Positions 55 to 62,825 of a stretch of 64,000 nucleotides of DNA are shown here, in pieces; position 1 is the stretch's first letter; every line of letters begins with the position of its first letter. The stretch is from positions 95,604,001 to 95,668,000 of the forward strand of contig NC_042999.1 in assembly GCF_006345805.1 (NCBI RefSeq), given 5' to 3'. A program made the position numbers and the translations under genes. Origin of the DNA: Octopus sinensis. Its lineage: Eukaryota. The notes beneath the pieces were generated by a model. That model did not search any database. It was not told where the DNA came from and saw only the letters and a list, made by a program, of their open reading frames with translations.

Positions 55-2175
55 CAGTATGAGATTAAATCATTCCATGACAGCTCATTTTATGATTTAC
101 ACATTTTACAAATCAATTTTCCCCATTGAAATTAATTAAAATATGATTAATCCGTTCCAGCCTCACAAAACCACCCAGAAATAATTTTTTAGGAGTTTTA
201 AAACAGAAAAGTTGCAGTTACAAGGAAAATGACAATTATAAAAACATAATAAAAGAGAATGTAAAAAGAAATATGTAAACTGGTTTTATTACTTAAATTA
301 CCTTAAAGACGGGACAATTTGTGCACGAGAAAGACGATGGAGTGGGGAGGAGGAGGATTATTGTTTGGAAGGAGAATCTCCTTCCATTAAGACATCAGGA
401 AGAACAATTTCTGATATTTTCTCATTTAATTTAGGCTTTTTGGACATACTTTCTTCACTTTTCACACTTGCAAGTCATTTCAAGAGAAGTCTGATTTTTC
501 CTGCCTTTCAAAATGTTACGAAAATGCACCAAGGCAGTGTCATTAAATAAAGCAGCTGCATAACCTTAAGATACTTTTACAGGATGAGATTTTTCTATAA
601 ATTCTATCTCCTCAACTACAGGTGTATCAGACTCAAACCCCTCAAAGTCCCTTTTGGATATGCAGTTAGGTCACAGTTTCCTCCACGCAGAATTCAGTGT
701 TCTCATGACACCCTGTCAGGCTATAATGATGATTTTGAGGCAGTTAATGTTGTAGTGCTTCTTTCAAAACTAACAACGGGTTAGATTTGTATTTTCGGTG
801 ACTTCAAAGTATCAACAAAACAGGTGTTTGGTGTACAATTTCTTAAAATTAGAAATCACTTGTTGGTCTCTGAACTGCAAGACAGGAGTAGTGTTGTGTG
901 AAAGAAATAACACTTTTATGAATGTAAATTTGTCCAGGATATCATCTTCGAAGTTAGGAGGGTGTGCAGGAGCATTGTTGAGGATGAGGAGAGCCTTGAG
1001 AGGCAGATCGTTCTCCAGAATGTACTTTTTCACTGCTGATCTGAAGATAAGGTTGGTCGACTTGGTGAAGAATTGACTAGTGATCCAGGCTTTAACATTT
1101 GCCCTCCACATGACCTGCAGTTTCTCCTTCAGGATTTTCTGTGACTTGAACATTTGTGGGTTTTCGGCATGGTAGACAAAGAGCTGCTTAATCTTCAAGT
1201 CTTCACTGGTATTGGCACAAAGGGTGAGAGTTCACCTATCTTTCATAGGCTTGTGGCCTGGCATTTTCTTCTCTTCTGCATTATATAGGTTCTTCTGAGC
1301 ATTTTTTCCAGAAAACGCCAGCTTCATCACAGCTGAATACCTGCTGTGTGATGTACCCCTTAGCTGTGATGAGCTGATGGAATTCACACATGAAACCCTC
1401 AGCTGCTTTCAAGTCAGAACTTGATGCTTCTCCATACTTGTGATACTATGAATACCAGTCCACTTCTTGAAATTATCGAAGCAGCCACAGCTAGCCTTAA
1501 ATATGTCTGCTGATGTCTTCTCCATTGATATTCCTGGGTTCGCTTCAGGAGATCCCCATACAGCACTTGTGTTTTCTCACAGATTATGGTCTCCGTAATT
1601 GTATCTCCTGTGAGCTGCTTCTTGTTGATCCACAGGAGAAGCAATTTTTCCATCTCTACATGGACAGATGTACGTTGCCTGAAGAGCCTGGAGAAACCTT
1701 TGCTGTTGTAATGGCCTTGATCTTGTCCTTTCTCTTCAGGGTGGTTGATGTTTTTCAGTCGTATTGATGTGCTATGTCCACTACATGCACTCCTCTCTCA
1801 TGTTTACCAATGATTTCCTTCTTCATTTCCGTCATAATCAGCATTTTCTTCTTCACAGCACTGTCCTTTGCATTAACTTTCTTAGGACACATGGCTAACA
1901 CATGTAATTATTATAAAATAATAGCAAAAAATGCACAAAACTAAGAATAACACTTAGAAAACACAACAGAGATGCTACTACAACAAGATAAACGTAAACT
2001 GAGCAAACTGAGGCTGTACTTGTTGGAAGAGCATGTTCAAGCTAGTGGTCACGTGTATGAAACTTACTTGTACTACAGATTTCCACTCATACTTCACTAC
2101 AAAATTTCGCACAAGTTTTGTCTTGTACGGCAAATTACTTGTACAATGGTACACTTGTACTCTGAGGTTCTACGG
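55..2175 (-). mobile_element. Tigger/pogo-type (TIGD1-like) DNA transposon, near full length, decayed
   Basis: Minus-strand frames give MCPKK..KKEIIGKHERG (ATG at 1892), the CENP-B-type HTH MEKLLLLWINKKQLTGDTITETIICEK (1414-1653) and DDE_1-like WRANVKAWIT..ALLILNNAPAHP..NTTPVLQ..DQQVISNFKKLY (812-1198). Terminus TA|CCGTAGAACCTCAG at 2177-2162. Subterminal GATTAATCCGTTCCAG near 145-160. The other TIR is eroded and the frame has many frameshifts. Confidence 0.9.
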
Positions 2176-2492
2176 TATTAGAAATTCTTGTTATTTTTCT
2201 AAGTTAAAATAATGACTGCAGTGTTTGTCATGATAAGAATTTAAGTTTCAACAAGATAAAAAAAAATAATAATAAAATTGCATTTGCTTTAAGCAAATTA
2301 TATGCTACTTCTATAATTTTTGTTCTCTTACTTTCTCTATCAGTTTTTGGTGAATATATTTATCTCCACCCTTTTTTCTGATTCTCATTTACTCATGCCT
2401 TTACTTATCTCTCTTAACTTTCCTCTTTCTTTCTCTGTGAAGCTCTCTCAGCAATTTAACTTCTCCCTCTCACTCTCTGTCATGCCCTTTCA

Positions 2493-2517
2493 ATATATAC
2501 ATACATACATACATATA

Positions 2518-2548
<31 letters not shown>
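2493..2548. repeat. (TA)n/(TACA)n microsatellite
   Basis: Direct inspection. Confidence 0.9.
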
Positions 2549-2551
<3 letters not shown>

Positions 2552-2869
2552 CTTCTTTTGGCTACTTTCATCTCTTCTTATAATTTATTTATTTATCTGA
2601 GCAATTTCCATGGTGCATCTGAAATATGTTTTGAATTTTAGTTATGACAGTTTTAATATTTTCTGGCTCTTTAATTATTTTACATATTAGCTATATTTGA
2701 CAGGATTTTACTTAGTTATATTTTTATGCTGGACTGAAGTATTTATGTTCTTGAAAATGATTGACCTTGTATATCTAAATTTTTGTAATGTTTTAAAGTA
2801 ATTAATACTGCACAGGTCACTTTTTTTAGCCTAACTATGTTTCCCAAGTAAAAAACCTTAAAATCCATT

Positions 2870-3405
2870 ATTCTTACACATGCTTCATACAGCCTGGTTT
2901 TGGTATGAAGAGAAAAGCCCTAGGTTGGCAACAGAGGTAATAGCTCCATAAACTTTTACTTTTTTTCTTATTCAAGCAACTATATTATTACTACATGCAG
3001 CACAAATTAGACACACTAAACATAGTAGCTACCTACTATGTGTAGTGAGTCTCTTAGCTGTAGAGGTACTTCACTTTATGGGTACTCTTACAGCTATCTA
3101 CTCTTGGGCATTTCTGGCATCTGAAGTTCTTGGGTCATGAACAGCCTGGCAGAAATTCCACTGTATCTGTTGTGCACCTAATCACTGCATTGAAGACACA
3201 TTATTGAGTTCTTCCAACTTCCTATCTACAAATTGAGCAAGGTAACTTCTCATATATCACTGGATGTTGTGTTCTCAGTAACTAATCTGTGTTTGTTATG
3301 TTGACCTTCAGTTCTTTGACCATTAAACTATTTTTCTGGATTTTGGAATATTTGCTGTGGCCCTTTCCCAGATTCAGCAATGAGAAACAGGTTATCAGCA
3401 TAATA
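2870..3405 (-). mobile_element. Old RTE LINE fragment (RT C-terminal half)
   Basis: Reverse complement reads YADNLFLIAES, KELKVNIT, PCSICR, CSD*VHNRYSGISARL, ELLPLL and RLYEACVR, in the order expected for RTE ORF2 after YADD. Frameshifted. Confidence 0.7.
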
Positions 3406-57472: not shown

Positions 57473-58744
57473 ACATTCTAATAATTGTTTTATTTCATTC
57501 AGTTTGTTAATGTCTTTACTTCTAATCAAGCACAATACTGGCTAATAGTCACTAAATTTGAAACGTGCAATGAAAGCAATTTAGAAAAAAAATTGATTTT
57601 TATCATGCAAAAGCATTTATTATTTAGGTCACTTGCATTTGTATTTTCTTAATATTTTCCTAAAATCAATCTATGTCCAATAAACTGACAAAAGATGGGT
57701 AATAGAATGAAATTGCTTACTACTGGAACACATTAATTGGGAACACACATTCTAGAACAACATGAATTATCAATTTATGTGTATCCCTAGTTAAATATTT
57801 AGAAAAATAACTATGATAACTACAGTAACTAAGTCATGTTACAGTTAAATTATACAAAGACAATTATTTGTAATAATTCTAATCTACTGTAGCAAAACTG
57901 CATAAAGTATTCTGCTATAATGTTGTATTTGTATATTTCAAGTAGTTTATTCTCTAACAAGGATGAAATACTCAGGTAGGTGACTATAGGTTAATGGATT
58001 GGGAGTAGAGTAAAAATACATTTGATGGATAGAATACCAGACCTTTGCAAATTAGTTCTGAGATATTTTGATATTAATTTCTTATAGTTAGATGAACTGA
58101 CTCACCTAGAATAAATTTTTCTGCTCAGAAATACAATTAGAATCCTGCATTGGATTTCATCTTGTGAATCATGGACTCTGAGTTTAGTAGTAGATGTATT
58201 TGGTCATTTTGACCTTTAATAATATATACTGAGCTGTGATATATCATCATGATAGGCAAACTAAAGCTGTAAATATTACCTATCAATTATAAAAGTAAAT
58301 TATTTCTAATTCAATATAAAAATGCTAGAACCTACACTAAGTATTTATTCATGGCACATGACTGATTCTGATTATGTGGTATATTATTTAAGTTACTCAA
58401 TCCTTACATAGATTGGATAGGTCATCTTCAACATAGTGTTATGTCACTTTTGTAAGGTTCAACCACTTCAGATCAACTTTCACAACTTTGTTCTGTCCTC
58501 ATTGATCTTCCATTTCCATAGATTCCTTTCTCTTGGATCATTAATTAATTCATTACTCACTTGTGATCCTCTATAAGCATCATGCCTTCTTTACCATCTC
58601 TCTAGTATACTATAATTGATTCTTTTTATAATCTAGTACGTAGTTTTGCTCTAAGTTTGTGCTCCTTCATTAGCATTGCCAATCCAGCAGAAAAAGCTTA
58701 CTTGATTTCTTTGTAGCCCTTGCACATACTCCACATCCAATGTC

Positions 58745-60530
58745 CAACTTGCCTGCATAGTGTTGCCATCTGAGCAATGTGCACATGGAAAGTTGCTTTG
58801 TTGCTCACATGGATTCCCAGGTTGCACACCAACTCTAACTCTGGGATTACATTGCCTGCTGGTCCCATGTACTTCAGTTGTAGTTTGTATGTGGGTTGAT
58901 TGTGGAGCGCTTGAAATTTTGCAGCATTGAACTGCATATTATTCTCATCTGCCCACTTATATATTGCATTCAGGTCATTCTGCAGTCTTAGGATGTCAGT
59001 AGGATCTTTGATCGCCTGCAATACTTTTGTATCATCGGCGTGGCTGGTAAGTGTGGCTGAGGGCATATCCAAGAGAGCAACCACAAACTGTAGTGGTCCA
59101 AGCTCTGTTCCCTGGGGGACTCTGCTGAAGATTGTTGTCACTTAGAGAGAGCACCCTTTGCTGTGGCAGCCTGACTTTTGCCCTTCAGGAAATCATGCAG
59201 TCACTCTGCCAGTCTACCTGCAATACTGAGGTCATGCAATTTGTGACACACCACCCCATGCTCGATCTTGTCAGAGACCTTGGCAAAGTCAAGATATATC
59301 ACATTTGAATGGTTGAGCTGTTGTTTTAGTACCCAGTTGAAGTGCTGTAGTAGCTGTGTTAGGCAGCTCCTTCCAGGACAGAAGCCATGTTGCATGCCTA
59401 AGCAAGTCATTTTCTTCTAGGAATGTGGTCAATTTTTTTCTGACAATGCATTCCATGATCTTGATAACATGTGAGGTCAGAGAGATAGGCCTGTAGTTTA
59501 TAGCATCTGCTCTGCTTCCTCCTTTGTGGACAAGGCAGATTATTCCTTCTTTTAACATTTGAGGAAATGTACTGCATTCAAGGGAACTCTGAAAAAGCAT
59601 TTGCAGTGGTTTTGCAAGAGTTTTCTTGCATGTTTTTAACAGAATTGCAGGGAGTCCATCTGGGCCTGTTGCAGAGTATGAGTTTATCTCATCAATGGCT
59701 GAGAATACATCCTCTTCTGTAATATCAATGTAATTGATGGTTACCTTTTTCTCTTGTAGATTAGGTGTTGAACTCATCAGGTCTGCTTATTTTCATGTTT
59801 TCCAGTGAAGTGAAAACACTATGGAATTTTTTATTGAGTGCTTCATTTATCCTCTTGGGGTCTACAGTCAATGAGCTGTTTTCATCAAAGGGTAGCCCTA
59901 TCCTGTAGTGCATTGAAGCAGACTCTTTTGTGAACTTGTAGAAGGCTTCAGGGTTCCTTTTTATATTTTCCACCACCCTGGCTTCTCTGTTTACCCTTTC
60001 TTTTTCATGGGAGAGTCTGATTTTATTCTCAGTCTCTAGGGATGCCATTTTGAGGTAGGGATTTTTGCTGTGTTTAAGTGATTTGAGATCTTTATCCTCC
60101 ATCTCATTAGGATACTCCTATCATGGGGTATAATTTTCTTATGTGTAGTAGCTTTCTTCTCTGGGACAAACACATATGGTTCATATTATTGACATGAACT
60201 CATTGAATTTCATGTCAGTATCTTGCATGGACAGACTTTTAAGCCAGTTTTGCTGGAGTATCTCTTCGTTGATAGACTTCCAGTCAGCCTTGTAGAAGTT
60301 CAGGTTGGCTAGTGCTTGGGATCCAGCTGTGTGATATGATTCTTTAATTAGCTTTGGACCATATATTTAGTGAGTTGATGGTGAGAGTTTTATGTTGTGG
60401 ATAAGGTTCATATTGTTTGTGAAGCAAAGATCCAGGATATTGTTATTTCTGGTTGGGGAAAGTTTGGTCAGCTCCATGAACATTATTTTTGTGATATCTA
60501 CTAGAGATTCTGCCTGATTGCATTCTTACT
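58745..60530 (-). mobile_element. CR1-group LINE ORF2 fragment (endonuclease end to RT), pseudogenised
   Basis: PTRNNNILDLCFTNN; SATGPDGLPAILLK; NYRPISLTSHVIKIME; QHGFCPGRSCLTQLL; YLDFAKVSDKIEH; VPQGTELGPLQF; HADDTKV. Frameshifted. Confidence 0.93.
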
Positions 60531-61864
60531 TATAAGTAATATTTTGAACTATGTTTAATCATTCTGAATGTCCTTTATTTTGAAGTTCATGAATTCATCT
60601 GATGAAAAGGGTTTCTTTACAATGATATGATATTTTCATTAATCAATTAAAGGAGTCATTAGAAACAGATGTAATGGATTGACAGCTGTACTTCTATTGT
60701 TATTCATGTATGTATGTATAAATTTAAGTCACAGTATATGAATTCAAGTAATCTGGTGGTACTCATAAAAAAAGCTCATTAATGCATCATTGTACAAAAC
60801 ATGAAATATATAGCATGATGTAAAAATGACAAGGAGTGCATAAAGTCATGAATGACAGAAATAGTTTGATGAAATTTTATTTAACAATATTTTCTGCATT
60901 TTGCATTAATGCAGACATCTAAGTAACTTATTTATTATTAAATATATTAATATAAATTTACATGTTTTTATGTTATGAAACAATTTTTTTCATGTTTAAA
61001 TTTTCTTATTGTTAAATAAACTTTGTCAACAAAATATTTCTCTGTCATATTATTATTTTTATAATAGCCTTTACATAAGTAATCCTCCTAATTTTGTACC
61101 TCTAGAAATTTATATTAGCTTGTATATAATAGCACTGGTAACTTCACAACTTATAATATACCTCTTAGATTATAATTAATATATAGTTAGCATGTTCTAT
61201 CGCCCCAGTATTCCTTTAGTAAATGCCAGTGATCAGTTTTTATAGATTCCACCTAATAAGAAAATAATTAAGTATATGAATGAATATCAAACTAATTCTA
61301 TATAATTTTTTTCTCTCTCTATTCTCGAAAAATTTGGTATATATTCAAAATTTATCTTTTTGGTTATAATATTCTTTTTGATAACCATAAATTTTATTGT
61401 TATACAATATAACATTATTGTTTAAATCAATCACCTATAGTATCCCATGATAAAATTTCCTCTGTATTATCCTCATTGGTCTTGCCTCTAACTGGTAATT
61501 AACATCTTGATTTGAGGTCTTCCACTACCCAACCTCATTATAGCCAGTTACTTTATACTACTTCAAAAATAATCTTGACAAGTTTTATGACTATACCCAC
61601 TATGATTCTGTCAACTCCCTCATGCCCTTTCCTAACAGATACTATTCCCTAGTCTCAGATTTGATAAACAAGACTAATAAATTAAAACTGAACCAAAATC
61701 AGTGACAAGCTATGACCCAAACAGAATTTTTCCTGATGTCTTAGAAACTTCTAAGCTGAAGTGACAATAGCATGGATTTTGTCTGTCTTCTTACCATCTC
61801 AGAGGATTTAAGTAAAATTATACAAATGTATCCATCTGATTAAAAAAATTCTATCTATGTATTT

Positions 61865-61952
61865 ATGTAGCTGAGGATAGCCCTGCATTTAACTTGATGC
61901 AATGATTGCATTGTTCAATTAAATGGGGCTGCTTGAAACGGTCATACTGCAT
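61865..61952 (+). ncRNA. Type I hammerhead ribozyme motif, degenerate stem III
   Basis: ATGTAG-CTGAGGA-[long stem II TAGCCC..GGGCTG]-GAAA-CGGTCA-TA-CTGCAT. Confidence 0.6.
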
Positions 61953-61977
61953 TACCTCTGGATATCCTGTTATTTTG

Positions 61978-61982
<5 letters not shown>

Positions 61983-62052
<70 letters not shown>

Positions 62053-62079
62053 ATATATGTGTGTGTATATATATATATA
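61983..62079. repeat. (TA)n/(TG)n microsatellite between inverted repeat arms
   Basis: Direct inspection. Confidence 0.95.
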
Positions 62080-62114
62080 AAATCAAAATAAGCAACAAGG
62101 ATATCCAGAGGTAA

Positions 62115-62206
62115 TGCAGTACGATCGTTTCATGCAACTCCATTTAATTGATCAATGCAATCATTTCATTACATCATTTTAAAATGTAGAGCAATCTTCA
62201 GCTGCA
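62115..62206 (-). ncRNA. Type I hammerhead ribozyme motif with intact catalytic core
   Basis: Minus strand TGCAG-CTGAAGA-[63-nt imperfect stem II]-GAAA-CGATCG-TA-CTGCA: CUGANGA, GAAA, palindromic stem III ACGATCGT, GUA site and a 5-bp stem I. Confidence 0.75.
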
Positions 62207-62325
62207 CAAAGAGAATTTAATTAAATTAGAACAAAAGGGCACATTAATATAATTTTACCTAAAATCTCCAAGGAGTTAAGGAGATGGACAGAGAACATGT
62301 TGTACCAACAACATCATAGTTGTAA

Positions 62326-62365
<40 letters not shown>

Positions 62366-62368
<3 letters not shown>

Positions 62369-62825
62369 AGCTCAAGCATCATCAAACTCACCAAAATATT
62401 TGCTGGTGACTCCAGGGTCCAGAAAATCATCAACAAAGAAGACTGAATTGAAATGCATTCTGATCTACATGCTGTAAGCCAATAGGTAGACAAAAACAAA
62501 TTAAAGTTAAGGGAAAATTTTGAACTGATGCATTTTGGAAAAAAGACTACATTCAAACAACCATTTTCTCTTCTATCAGAGGAACCACTTACAGCATCCA
62601 ATAATGTCAGAGACCTAGGGGTAATTGTTGACAATAATCTGAACTGGAGTGTGCACATTAACAAAATGTTGACATAGCTCCATAATGAGTTTCTAAGGTG
62701 TTCAAAACTTTCTGGTCCAGGGAGCAAGATGTCATCATTCCTGTCTTCTCTTTTGTGACAACATCCAGAATATTGCTACCCCTGTGGTCTCACTACACAA
62801 AACAAAATATCACGAGAACTAAAAC
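62366..62825 (+). mobile_element. CR1-group LINE RT C-terminal fragment
   Basis: KIFAGDSRV (FADD-like), DLHAVSQ*VDKNKLKL, FELMHFG, NVRDLGVIVDNNLNWSVHINK. Confidence 0.8.

What the first reader, a model, noticed from the sequence alone, without database searches (positions are those of the whole stretch)
61865..62206. Tail-to-tail pair of hammerhead ribozyme repeats bracketing a (TA)n tract
Seen: ~120-bp inverted arms (61865-61983 and 62078-62206) converge on a ~95-bp (TA)n/(TG)n spacer. Each arm consists mostly of a type I hammerhead with an unusually long (~60 nt) stem II. The minus-strand copy has an intact CUGAAGA/GAAA/GUA core and palindromic stem III ACGAUCGU. Both arms appear to end just outside stem I. 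Known: PLE hammerheads have short palindromic stem III and are thought to cleave as dimers, and PLE termini occur in inverted arrangements. Inferred: either two insertions of a (TA)n-targeting ribozyme-bearing retroelement into one strand-symmetric target, or a mobile foldback unit. Transcription from either strand would give a long hairpin containing one sense ribozyme. This is the best candidate here for an undescribed small element system.
Basis: partly seen in the sequence, partly recalled or inferred. Interest (0 to 1): 0.72.

Follow-up and report, generated by a model that had tools for sequence, protein, structure and literature searches.

The report
Two Hydra retrotransposon tails, one microsatellite
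The mirror-image pair is the cut-off tail ends of two different subfamilies of a known kind of jumping gene (a Hydra-type Penelope-like element), likely inserted at different times into the same TA repeat; each tail carries a hammerhead RNA motif with an unusually long side arm, predicted but not shown to cut itself.

Summary
The hammerheads, spacer and inverted layout are real, but the arms do not stop at stem I. The left arm ends a ~940-bp copy (61045-61983); the right is a 250-bp copy (62078-62327) with (TA)n on both sides. Both belong to a family with thousands of copies. Walking upstream reaches a reverse transcriptase and GIY-YIG-type endonuclease with the diagnostic motifs of Hydra-clade Penelope-like elements, known to insert in (TA)n and carry 3' hammerheads. 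The arms are 72% identical and fall in separate subfamilies (100/100), so two insertions explain the pair, not a foldback unit. Across three subfamilies stem I, basal stem II and the palindromic stem III covary, fitting a dimer-dependent ribozyme; cleavage is untested. New relative to the papers read: a 57-63-nt stem II (Hydra relatives up to about 26), a 1.2-2.8-kb non-coding 3' region, and 16 other tail-to-tail junctions, about half of them local copies of one arm. This scan noted the long-armed Hydra hammerhead before on other DNA. Ordinary locus; modest variant.

The parts
61045..61983 (+). 5'-truncated copy of the Hydra-type element, subfamily B: part of the non-coding 3' region plus the 'short' 3' end
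   Evidence: 81-86% to subfamily-B loci over 950-1010 nt, alignments stop at 61045-61052; 90.1% to the B majority, 76.4% to the A majority
61866..61951 (+). Type I hammerhead of the left copy, 57-nt stem II region, stem III damaged (ACGGTCAT, triplet ATA)
   Evidence: sequence; subfamily B normally has ACGGTCGT
61984..62077 (.). (TA)n/(TG)n target tract between the two 3' ends
   Evidence: sequence; 59 of 68 short ends in the family have TA repeats within 40 nt vs 9.3% background
62078..62327 (-). 5'-truncated copy, subfamily A, 250 bp, with (TA)n on both sides
   Evidence: 89-94% to the 39 other full-length top matches, 2383 first-look candidates; 95.8% to the A majority, 76.8% to B
62115..62206 (-). 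Intact type I hammerhead: CTGAAGA, 63-nt stem II region, GAAA, palindromic stem III ACGATCGT, predicted cut between 62120 and 62119
   Evidence: covariation across subfamilies
62328..62365 (.). (TA)19 at the 5' junction of the right copy, the likely other half of the target tract
   Evidence: sequence; family sequence continues differently upstream in L004, L005, L021
60541..60711 (+).
   Evidence: core scan; 927 first-look candidates, 84-89%; alignment

Best explanation
The locus holds two 5'-truncated 3' ends of a Hydra-clade Penelope-like retrotransposon from two subfamilies, facing each other across a TA repeat, which likely got there by two separate insertions. Shown: each arm continues into the family's 3' region; the family encodes RT plus a CxCX5C linker and endonuclease; its 3' ends sit at (TA)n; the arms belong to different subfamilies. 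Inferred: the endonuclease nicks (TA)n on either strand because the repeat reads the same both ways; the older subfamily-B copy went in first; the younger subfamily-A copy later primed on the other strand of the same tract and split it. The hammerhead is a 3'-end motif kept by selection in the active lineage; with only 2-3 bp of monomeric stem III and a conserved 8-nt palindrome it would cleave as a dimer (tandem copies or two RNAs in one particle), perhaps with help from the element's protein. The tail-to-tail pair itself likely has no function.
For: Family size and 3'-end pattern: (1615 exact short ends on one strand, control 0). Walk to the ORF; RT 35% to P0003, E 2e-66; 13 of 23 endonuclease-bearing loci have a same-strand hammerhead end downstream, 11 subfamily A and 2 (near-duplicate) subfamily B. 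Hydra motifs as defined in PMC8557442 section 11: ADKT in L100 and L104, RRMRW in L104, CxCX5C in 19 of 23 loci, CELC and SC[VI]H around the E and N. Arms 71.7% identical, A/B split 100/100 in a 100-row tree. One-event insertions look different: all 23 head-to-head pair rows are within one subfamily and 15 of 16 classifiable ones have one short and one long end; the window pair is mixed and short+short. Other mixed tail-to-tail pairs exist (L200 73%, L195 88%, L190; a C-end facing another subfamily in L180); about 1-5 are expected by chance (1615 squared over 0.5-2.1 million TA tracts). Ribozyme fold: 92.2% of cells paired, two-sided changes in stem I, basal stem II and the palindrome centre (AU/GU/GC).
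Against: No intact ORF was found; copies are 7-8% from their majority sequence, so activity is past. Pfam hits are below cut-off (GIY-YIG E 0.003-0.01, no RT hit); clade placement rests on motifs and on by-eye comparison with the paper's Hydra proteins, not on a tree with named references. Subfamily B is tied to the ORF by only one independent same-strand locus. Order of insertion is inferred from divergence (90.1% vs 95.8%) and geometry; no empty site was seen. About half of the 16 other tail-to-tail junctions are not independent insertions. Distal stem II shows few two-sided changes and RNAalifold predicted only stem I; the two-sided changes reflect about five events between three subfamilies.
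Confidence: 0.9

Rival explanations
1. One arm is a local inverted copy of the other, made by fold-back and template switching at the self-complementary TA tract (or by conversion between arms).
For: This fits 8 of the 16 other tail-to-tail junctions: arms share private changes (L191 84/86 with a 7-nt duplication, L199 137/139 with an internal deletion, L194 45/45, L188 31/31, also L193, L197, L202, L203) and the shorter arm is usually bordered by (TA)n, as the right arm is here. Those arms are closer than head-to-head partners (89.6% pooled) or random same-subfamily pairs (88-89%).
Against: Here the arms are 72% identical and each is 90-96% like a different dispersed subfamily; a local copy cannot produce that.
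Confidence: 0.03
2. The pair is a mobile foldback unit or a MITE-like DNA transposon whose inverted arms are its termini.
For: Inverted arms around a simple-repeat spacer; 16 other exact tail-to-tail junctions with 10-70-nt spacers, control 0.
Against: Arm lengths and subfamilies differ at every junction; outer ends here (61045, 62327) share no terminal repeat or target duplication; arms continue into an RT-bearing element; only 2 of 29 pair rows in the homology sample are tail-to-tail.
Confidence: 0.02
3. The second insertion was not by chance: the element's protein prefers TA tracts next to an existing element end (self-homing).
For: PMC11167929 (parts 1-2 read) reports PLE protein cutting AT-rich DNA at its own ORF-pLTR junction and cites recognition of the tail; three family ends lie within 1.8 kb in this window; mixed pairs recur.
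Against: Mixed pairs number 3-4 of 16, within the rough 1-5 expected from random tract sharing.
Confidence: 0.12
4. The arms are monomers of a non-autonomous retrozyme that circularises by hammerhead cleavage.
For: Type I hammerhead with palindromic stem III; subfamily C copies found were nearly all ~200 nt and were not tied to an ORF.
Against: No tandem arrays of a 170-400-nt monomer; subfamily A and B ends continue for kilobases into an ORF; copies do not begin at the cut site.
Confidence: 0.03

Closest known systems
Hydra-clade Penelope-like elements, incl. Hydra-1_Obim (Craig et al. 2021, PMC8557442; seen: passages, section 11, supplement part 2 and look-ups)
   Same: C-terminal endonuclease, DKT, RW motif, CxCX5C linker, CxxC and CxH, no CCHH, (TA)n targets, sense type I hammerhead near the 3' end, inverted 5'-truncated copy at the 5' end, optional tail. 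The U before stem II and before GAAA matches the Penelope-N_HM hammerheads of File S2.
   Different: 57-63 nt between the core boxes vs up to about 26 in the listed Hydra hammerheads; hammerhead sequence unlike Hydra-1_Obim's; element about 5-6 kb vs <3 kb because of a 1.2-2.8-kb non-coding 3' region with ~335- and ~835-nt internal repeats and an Asn-rich insert before the linker; tail ~85 nt or more vs 30-40.
PLE hammerheads that work as dimers (Cervera and de la Pena 2014, PMC4209133; parts 1-2 of 4 read)
   Same: Short palindromic stem III, extra nucleotide at the base of stem II, mostly solo truncated copies; that paper already reports pairs on opposite strands ~100-700 bp apart in Schistosoma.
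   Different: Much longer stem II; that passage does not say whether the pairs face tail-to-tail.
Poseidon PAc element in vitro (Frangieh et al. 2024, PMC11167929; parts 1-2 of 4 read)
   Same: Two RT start sites explain short and long 3' ends; both strands cut in AT-rich DNA; protein-assisted hammerhead; no RNA-seq ends at the cut site.
   Different: Different clade; here the two ends are ~85 nt or more apart and segregate to opposite ends of inverted insertions (15 of 16).
PLE-X1_sMoe hammerhead (File S2 of PMC8557442)
   Same: A PLE hammerhead with about 52 nt in stem II plus loop, so a long arm is not without precedent.
   Different: Spike-moss, endonuclease-less, rDNA-targeted element; long loop rather than a long hairpin.
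Metazoan non-LTR retrozymes (Li et al. 2026, 10.64898/2026.07.22.740005, part 1 of 5 read; PMC7229834 search listing only)
   Same: Type I hammerhead derived from PLE ends.
   Different: Retrozymes are tandem non-coding monomers; these are truncated ends of a coding element.

Membership tests
Penelope-like elements | Single ORF with RT and C-terminal GIY-YIG-type endonuclease | tested here: met
   L100 RT 35% to P0003 (E 2e-66) followed by the endonuclease; weak Pfam GIY-YIG (E 0.003); ORF is broken in every copy seen
Penelope-like elements | 5' truncation with an inverted 5'-truncated copy; optional tail at one end | tested here: met
   23 head-to-head pair rows; 15 of 16 classifiable pairs short+long; L100 has the inverted arm abutting the RT
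Penelope-like elements | Direct pLTR upstream of the ORF (partial tandem) | tested here: inconclusive
   No copy with an intact 5' end was recovered; 4 tandem pair rows of ends only
Hydra clade | DKG changed to DKT | tested here: met
   ADKT in both loci that reach this region, L100 and L104
Hydra clade | RWK-type N-terminal motif | tested here: met
   RRMRWI in L104, aligned to KRMRWR of P0003; one locus only, third residue differs
Hydra clade | CxCX5C linker; CxxC and CxH flanking the E and N; CCHH absent | tested here: met
   CxCX5C in 19 of 23 loci, CELC-type in 18 of 23, SC[VI]H common; CCHH absence judged by eye from the alignment to P0003
Hydra clade | Insertion into (TA)n | tested here: met
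   59 of 68 short ends and 27 of 43 long ends vs 9.3% background
Hydra clade | Short element (<3 kb) with canonical hammerhead | tested here: not met
   3' non-coding region alone is 1.2-2.8 kb; stem II region 57-63 nt in 77 of 82 core-intact copies; descriptive in the paper ('generally'), not a clade-defining character
Hydra clade | RT phylogeny groups with named Hydra families | not tested
   Named reference proteins were seen only as paper text and compared by eye
Type I hammerhead ribozyme | CUGANGA, GAAA, NUH core with stems I-III | tested here: met
   82 of 108 full-length copies keep the core; covariation; right arm intact, left arm stem III broken
Type I hammerhead ribozyme | Self-cleavage at NUH | not testable with these tools
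   Needs an in vitro assay
MITE / foldback DNA transposon | Terminal inverted repeats at the outer ends, target duplication, dispersed copies of the whole unit | tested here: not met
Non-LTR retrozyme | Tandem non-coding monomers each with a hammerhead | tested here: not met

The most novel reading that the evidence does not exclude
The palindromic stem III, kept as ACGAUCGU, ACGGUCGU and ACGGCCGU in three subfamilies, clamps two element RNAs together in one particle, and the long stem II plus the conserved last ~35 nt is the docking platform for the RT; the pair of RNAs is then copied from two start sites at nicks on opposite strands, which is why 15 of 16 two-ended insertions carry one short and one long end. 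Separately, element ends next to (TA)n are duplicated in inverted form by fold-back at the repeat, giving a recurrent class of tail-to-tail twins.
Probability: 0.15. Interest if true: 0.6.

Novelty: new variant of a known kind. Interest (0 to 1): 0.24.

Why it matters
The locus itself is two dead retrotransposon ends. The family is a usable natural series for the open question of what PLE hammerheads do: thousands of copies, three or more subfamilies with compensatory changes in stem I, basal stem II and the stem III palindrome, and a clean short-end/long-end pattern. It also shows that Rfam misses these long-armed hammerheads and that Hydra elements can be about twice the published length.

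Tried and rejected
Rfam scan: no hammerhead family at E<=10. My first clade guess, Neptune (recalled motifs), was dropped after reading the Hydra definition. An antisense or repeat-coding ORF in the 3' region: longest stop-free stretch 57-72 codons in L099 and L105. RNAalifold gave only stem I. Run search: no RNA holder listed. Three raw RNA runs of another organism gave 312, 408 and 233 family-level reads at >=82%, both strands about equal, no pile-up of ends at the predicted cut; standard RNA-seq of mixed copies cannot test cleavage. Linking subfamily C to an ORF: no same-strand ORF upstream in the 16 C loci fetched. Whether inverted flanks are a general property of TA tracts: 0 of 782 tracts, too few to separate a general from an element-specific rate of about 0.25%. 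Print searches: octopus + hammerhead ribozyme, Penelope-like/Neptune/hammerhead/microsatellite/GIY-YIG (32), hammerhead/retrozyme/dimer (33), Penelope-like/Hydra/pLTR/hammerhead from 2022 (60), foldback terms (81), Penelope + tail-to-tail (82, passage in PMC9977147 concerns Replitrons): none of these listings or passages described this family or tail-to-tail PLE pairs at (TA)n. Repbase, Dfam and subscription papers were not searchable; bioRxiv supplements are closed and could list such families.

Full report
Observation. The window is G000:C3:95604001-95668000 of a 2.72-Gb animal genome (earlier scan notes call it likely an octopus, not tested here). The minus strand at 62206-62115 reads stem I, CTGAAGA, 63 nt, GAAA, the palindrome ACGATCGT with the GTA triplet, and stem I again; the plus strand at 61866-61951 has the same plan with 57 nt and a G-to-A change that breaks stem III. 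The spacer is (TA)n/(TG)n at 61984-62077. Rfam finds no hammerhead at E<=10. The claim that the arms end just outside stem I fails: the arms align at 74% over 196 nt, the right arm matches other copies to 62327, where a second (TA)19 begins, and the left arm matches its relatives back to about 61045.

What the family is. A search with the right arm gave 2383 first-look candidates, 40 scored; an exact end-plus-TA pattern occurs 1615 times on the forward strand, control 0 (the reverse count is inflated by overlapping matches). Walking upstream crossed a non-coding region with internal repeats and reached an endonuclease and an RT. L100 holds an inverted 3'-end copy, RT, Asn-rich insert, linker, endonuclease, 3' region and hammerhead end; its RT is 35% identical to P0003 (E 2e-66). 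Pfam support is weak (GIY-YIG E 0.003-0.01, below cut-off; no RT hit). Of 23 endonuclease-bearing loci, 13 have a same-strand hammerhead end downstream within the fetched stretch: 11 of the right arm's subfamily, 2 near-duplicate loci of the left arm's. The motifs are those given for the Hydra clade in PMC8557442 section 11: DKT, an RW motif, CxCX5C (19 of 23 loci), CxxC and CxH. The paper's supplement lists (TA)n targets for nearly all Hydra families and a 3' hammerhead in most, including an octopus family whose hammerhead differs from this one. No tree with named references was built.

Ends and pairs. Among 122 distinct copies in the loci then held, 113 had the 3' anchor: 68 short ends, 44 long ends, 1 cut by a locus edge; 59 of 68 short and 27 of 43 classifiable long ends have TA repeats within 40 nt, against 9.3% for random window positions. 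Of 29 pair rows within 10 kb, 23 are head-to-head, 4 tandem, 2 tail-to-tail; all 23 head-to-head rows are within one subfamily, and 15 of the 16 classifiable adjacent pairs have one short and one long end. That is the known PLE insertion structure and fits the two RT start sites shown for a Poseidon element (PMC11167929). The window pair differs: two short ends, 71.7% identical, in subfamilies split 100/100 in a tree of 100 of the 113 copies (13 shorter ones dropped); the left is 90.1% from its majority, the right 95.8%. The sample is biased to close relatives of the queries.

How common is tail-to-tail? Exact patterns found 11 junctions with 10-40-nt and 5 with 41-70-nt spacers, control 0; longer spacers, as here, were not searched. 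By eye, 8 of 16 are twins sharing private changes, 3-4 are mixed (73-88% or different subfamilies), 4-5 are too short to call. A rough null (1615 squared over 0.5-2.1 million TA tracts) expects 1-5 chance pairs, which covers the mixed class; the twins are the excess. Twins (93-100% in most) are closer than head-to-head partners (89.6%) or random same-subfamily pairs (88-89%), which points to later fold-back duplication or conversion rather than co-insertion; the exact-match pattern and the short conserved arms bias this comparison upward. The window pair belongs to the mixed class.

The ribozyme. 82 of 108 full-length copies keep the core boxes; 77 of these 82 have 57-63 nt between them. A third subfamily, one decayed end of which lies at 60541-60711, adds divergence. 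On 42 hand-picked copies (14 per subfamily, from 103 plus 21 references), my structure had 92.2% of cells paired and 11 pairs with two-sided changes against 6.3 in shuffles. The informative events are few: two in stem I, two in basal stem II, and the centre of the stem III palindrome (AU, GU, GC). The distal stem II is mostly invariant or changes on one side, and RNAalifold predicted only stem I. Monomeric stem III is 2-3 bp, whereas the right arm's 8-mer self-duplex is -10 kcal/mol; dimeric cleavage follows from PMC4209133, which also reports opposite-strand hammerhead pairs 100-700 bp apart in Schistosoma PLEs. A readthrough RNA over both arms folds into one hairpin (-248 kcal/mol over 511 nt), so this arrangement would hinder, not help, cleavage. 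RNA data were uninformative.

Novelty. Shown: Hydra-type coding element, (TA)n ends, two subfamilies, hammerhead fold. Inferred: order of insertion, dimeric cleavage, origin of twins. Different from the papers read: long stem II (up to about 26 nt in listed Hydra hammerheads, though a spike-moss PLE has about 52), element length, long tail. This scan already noted long-armed Hydra hammerheads at other places in this genome; my reading was fixed before that look-up. Verdict: an ordinary by-product at this locus, in a family that is a modest variant of a known kind. Interest 0.24.

Noticed in passing
window 60541-60711 (+): A third family end (subfamily C) with a decayed long-stem-II hammerhead; family form has different stem I, basal stem II and the palindrome ACGGCCGT; copies seen are mostly ~200 nt, often in head-to-head pairs.
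   Followed up: partly
L188, L191, L193, L194, L197, L199, L202, L203 (about 1500-1600 in each): Tail-to-tail 'twins' whose arms share private substitutions or indels and are closer than co-inserted head-to-head ends; likely later fold-back duplication or conversion at the TA tract.
   Followed up: partly
17 head-to-head pairs, e.g. L095, L100, L111: 15 of 16 classifiable pairs have one short end and one end with a tail of ~85 nt or more, as expected from two RT start sites.
   Followed up: partly
L180:7079-7400: Subfamily-C end facing a fourth subfamily's end across a TA tract: another mixed tail-to-tail pair. Further subfamilies appear in L190, L193, L194, L200.
   Followed up: no
L099, L105, L115 (between endonuclease and hammerhead): Non-coding 3' region with nested ~335-nt and ~835-nt repeats at 66-77% identity, 26% GC; origin unexplained.
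   Followed up: partly
L097, L098, L100, L113 (between RT thumb and CxCX5C): Long Asn-rich, (AAT)n-derived in-frame insert absent from P0001-P0004.
   Followed up: no
L109:2-808 and L061 (oriented 1859-2975): Other PLE families nested nearby: one Hydra-like at 39% to P0003, one with a YLDD RT and a CxxxxCxxC linker.
   Followed up: no
window 58698-60500 (-) and 62400-62780 (+): Fragments that translate like LINE reverse transcriptases flank the cluster of ends; not classified.
   Followed up: no
L114/L115, L038/L039, L148/L168: Near-identical locus pairs (segmental or assembly duplicates); counted separately in some tallies.
   Followed up: no
runs X16-X19: 777-3153 contigs at >=85% in runs of four other coded organisms: the family is shared beyond this genome.
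   Followed up: partly
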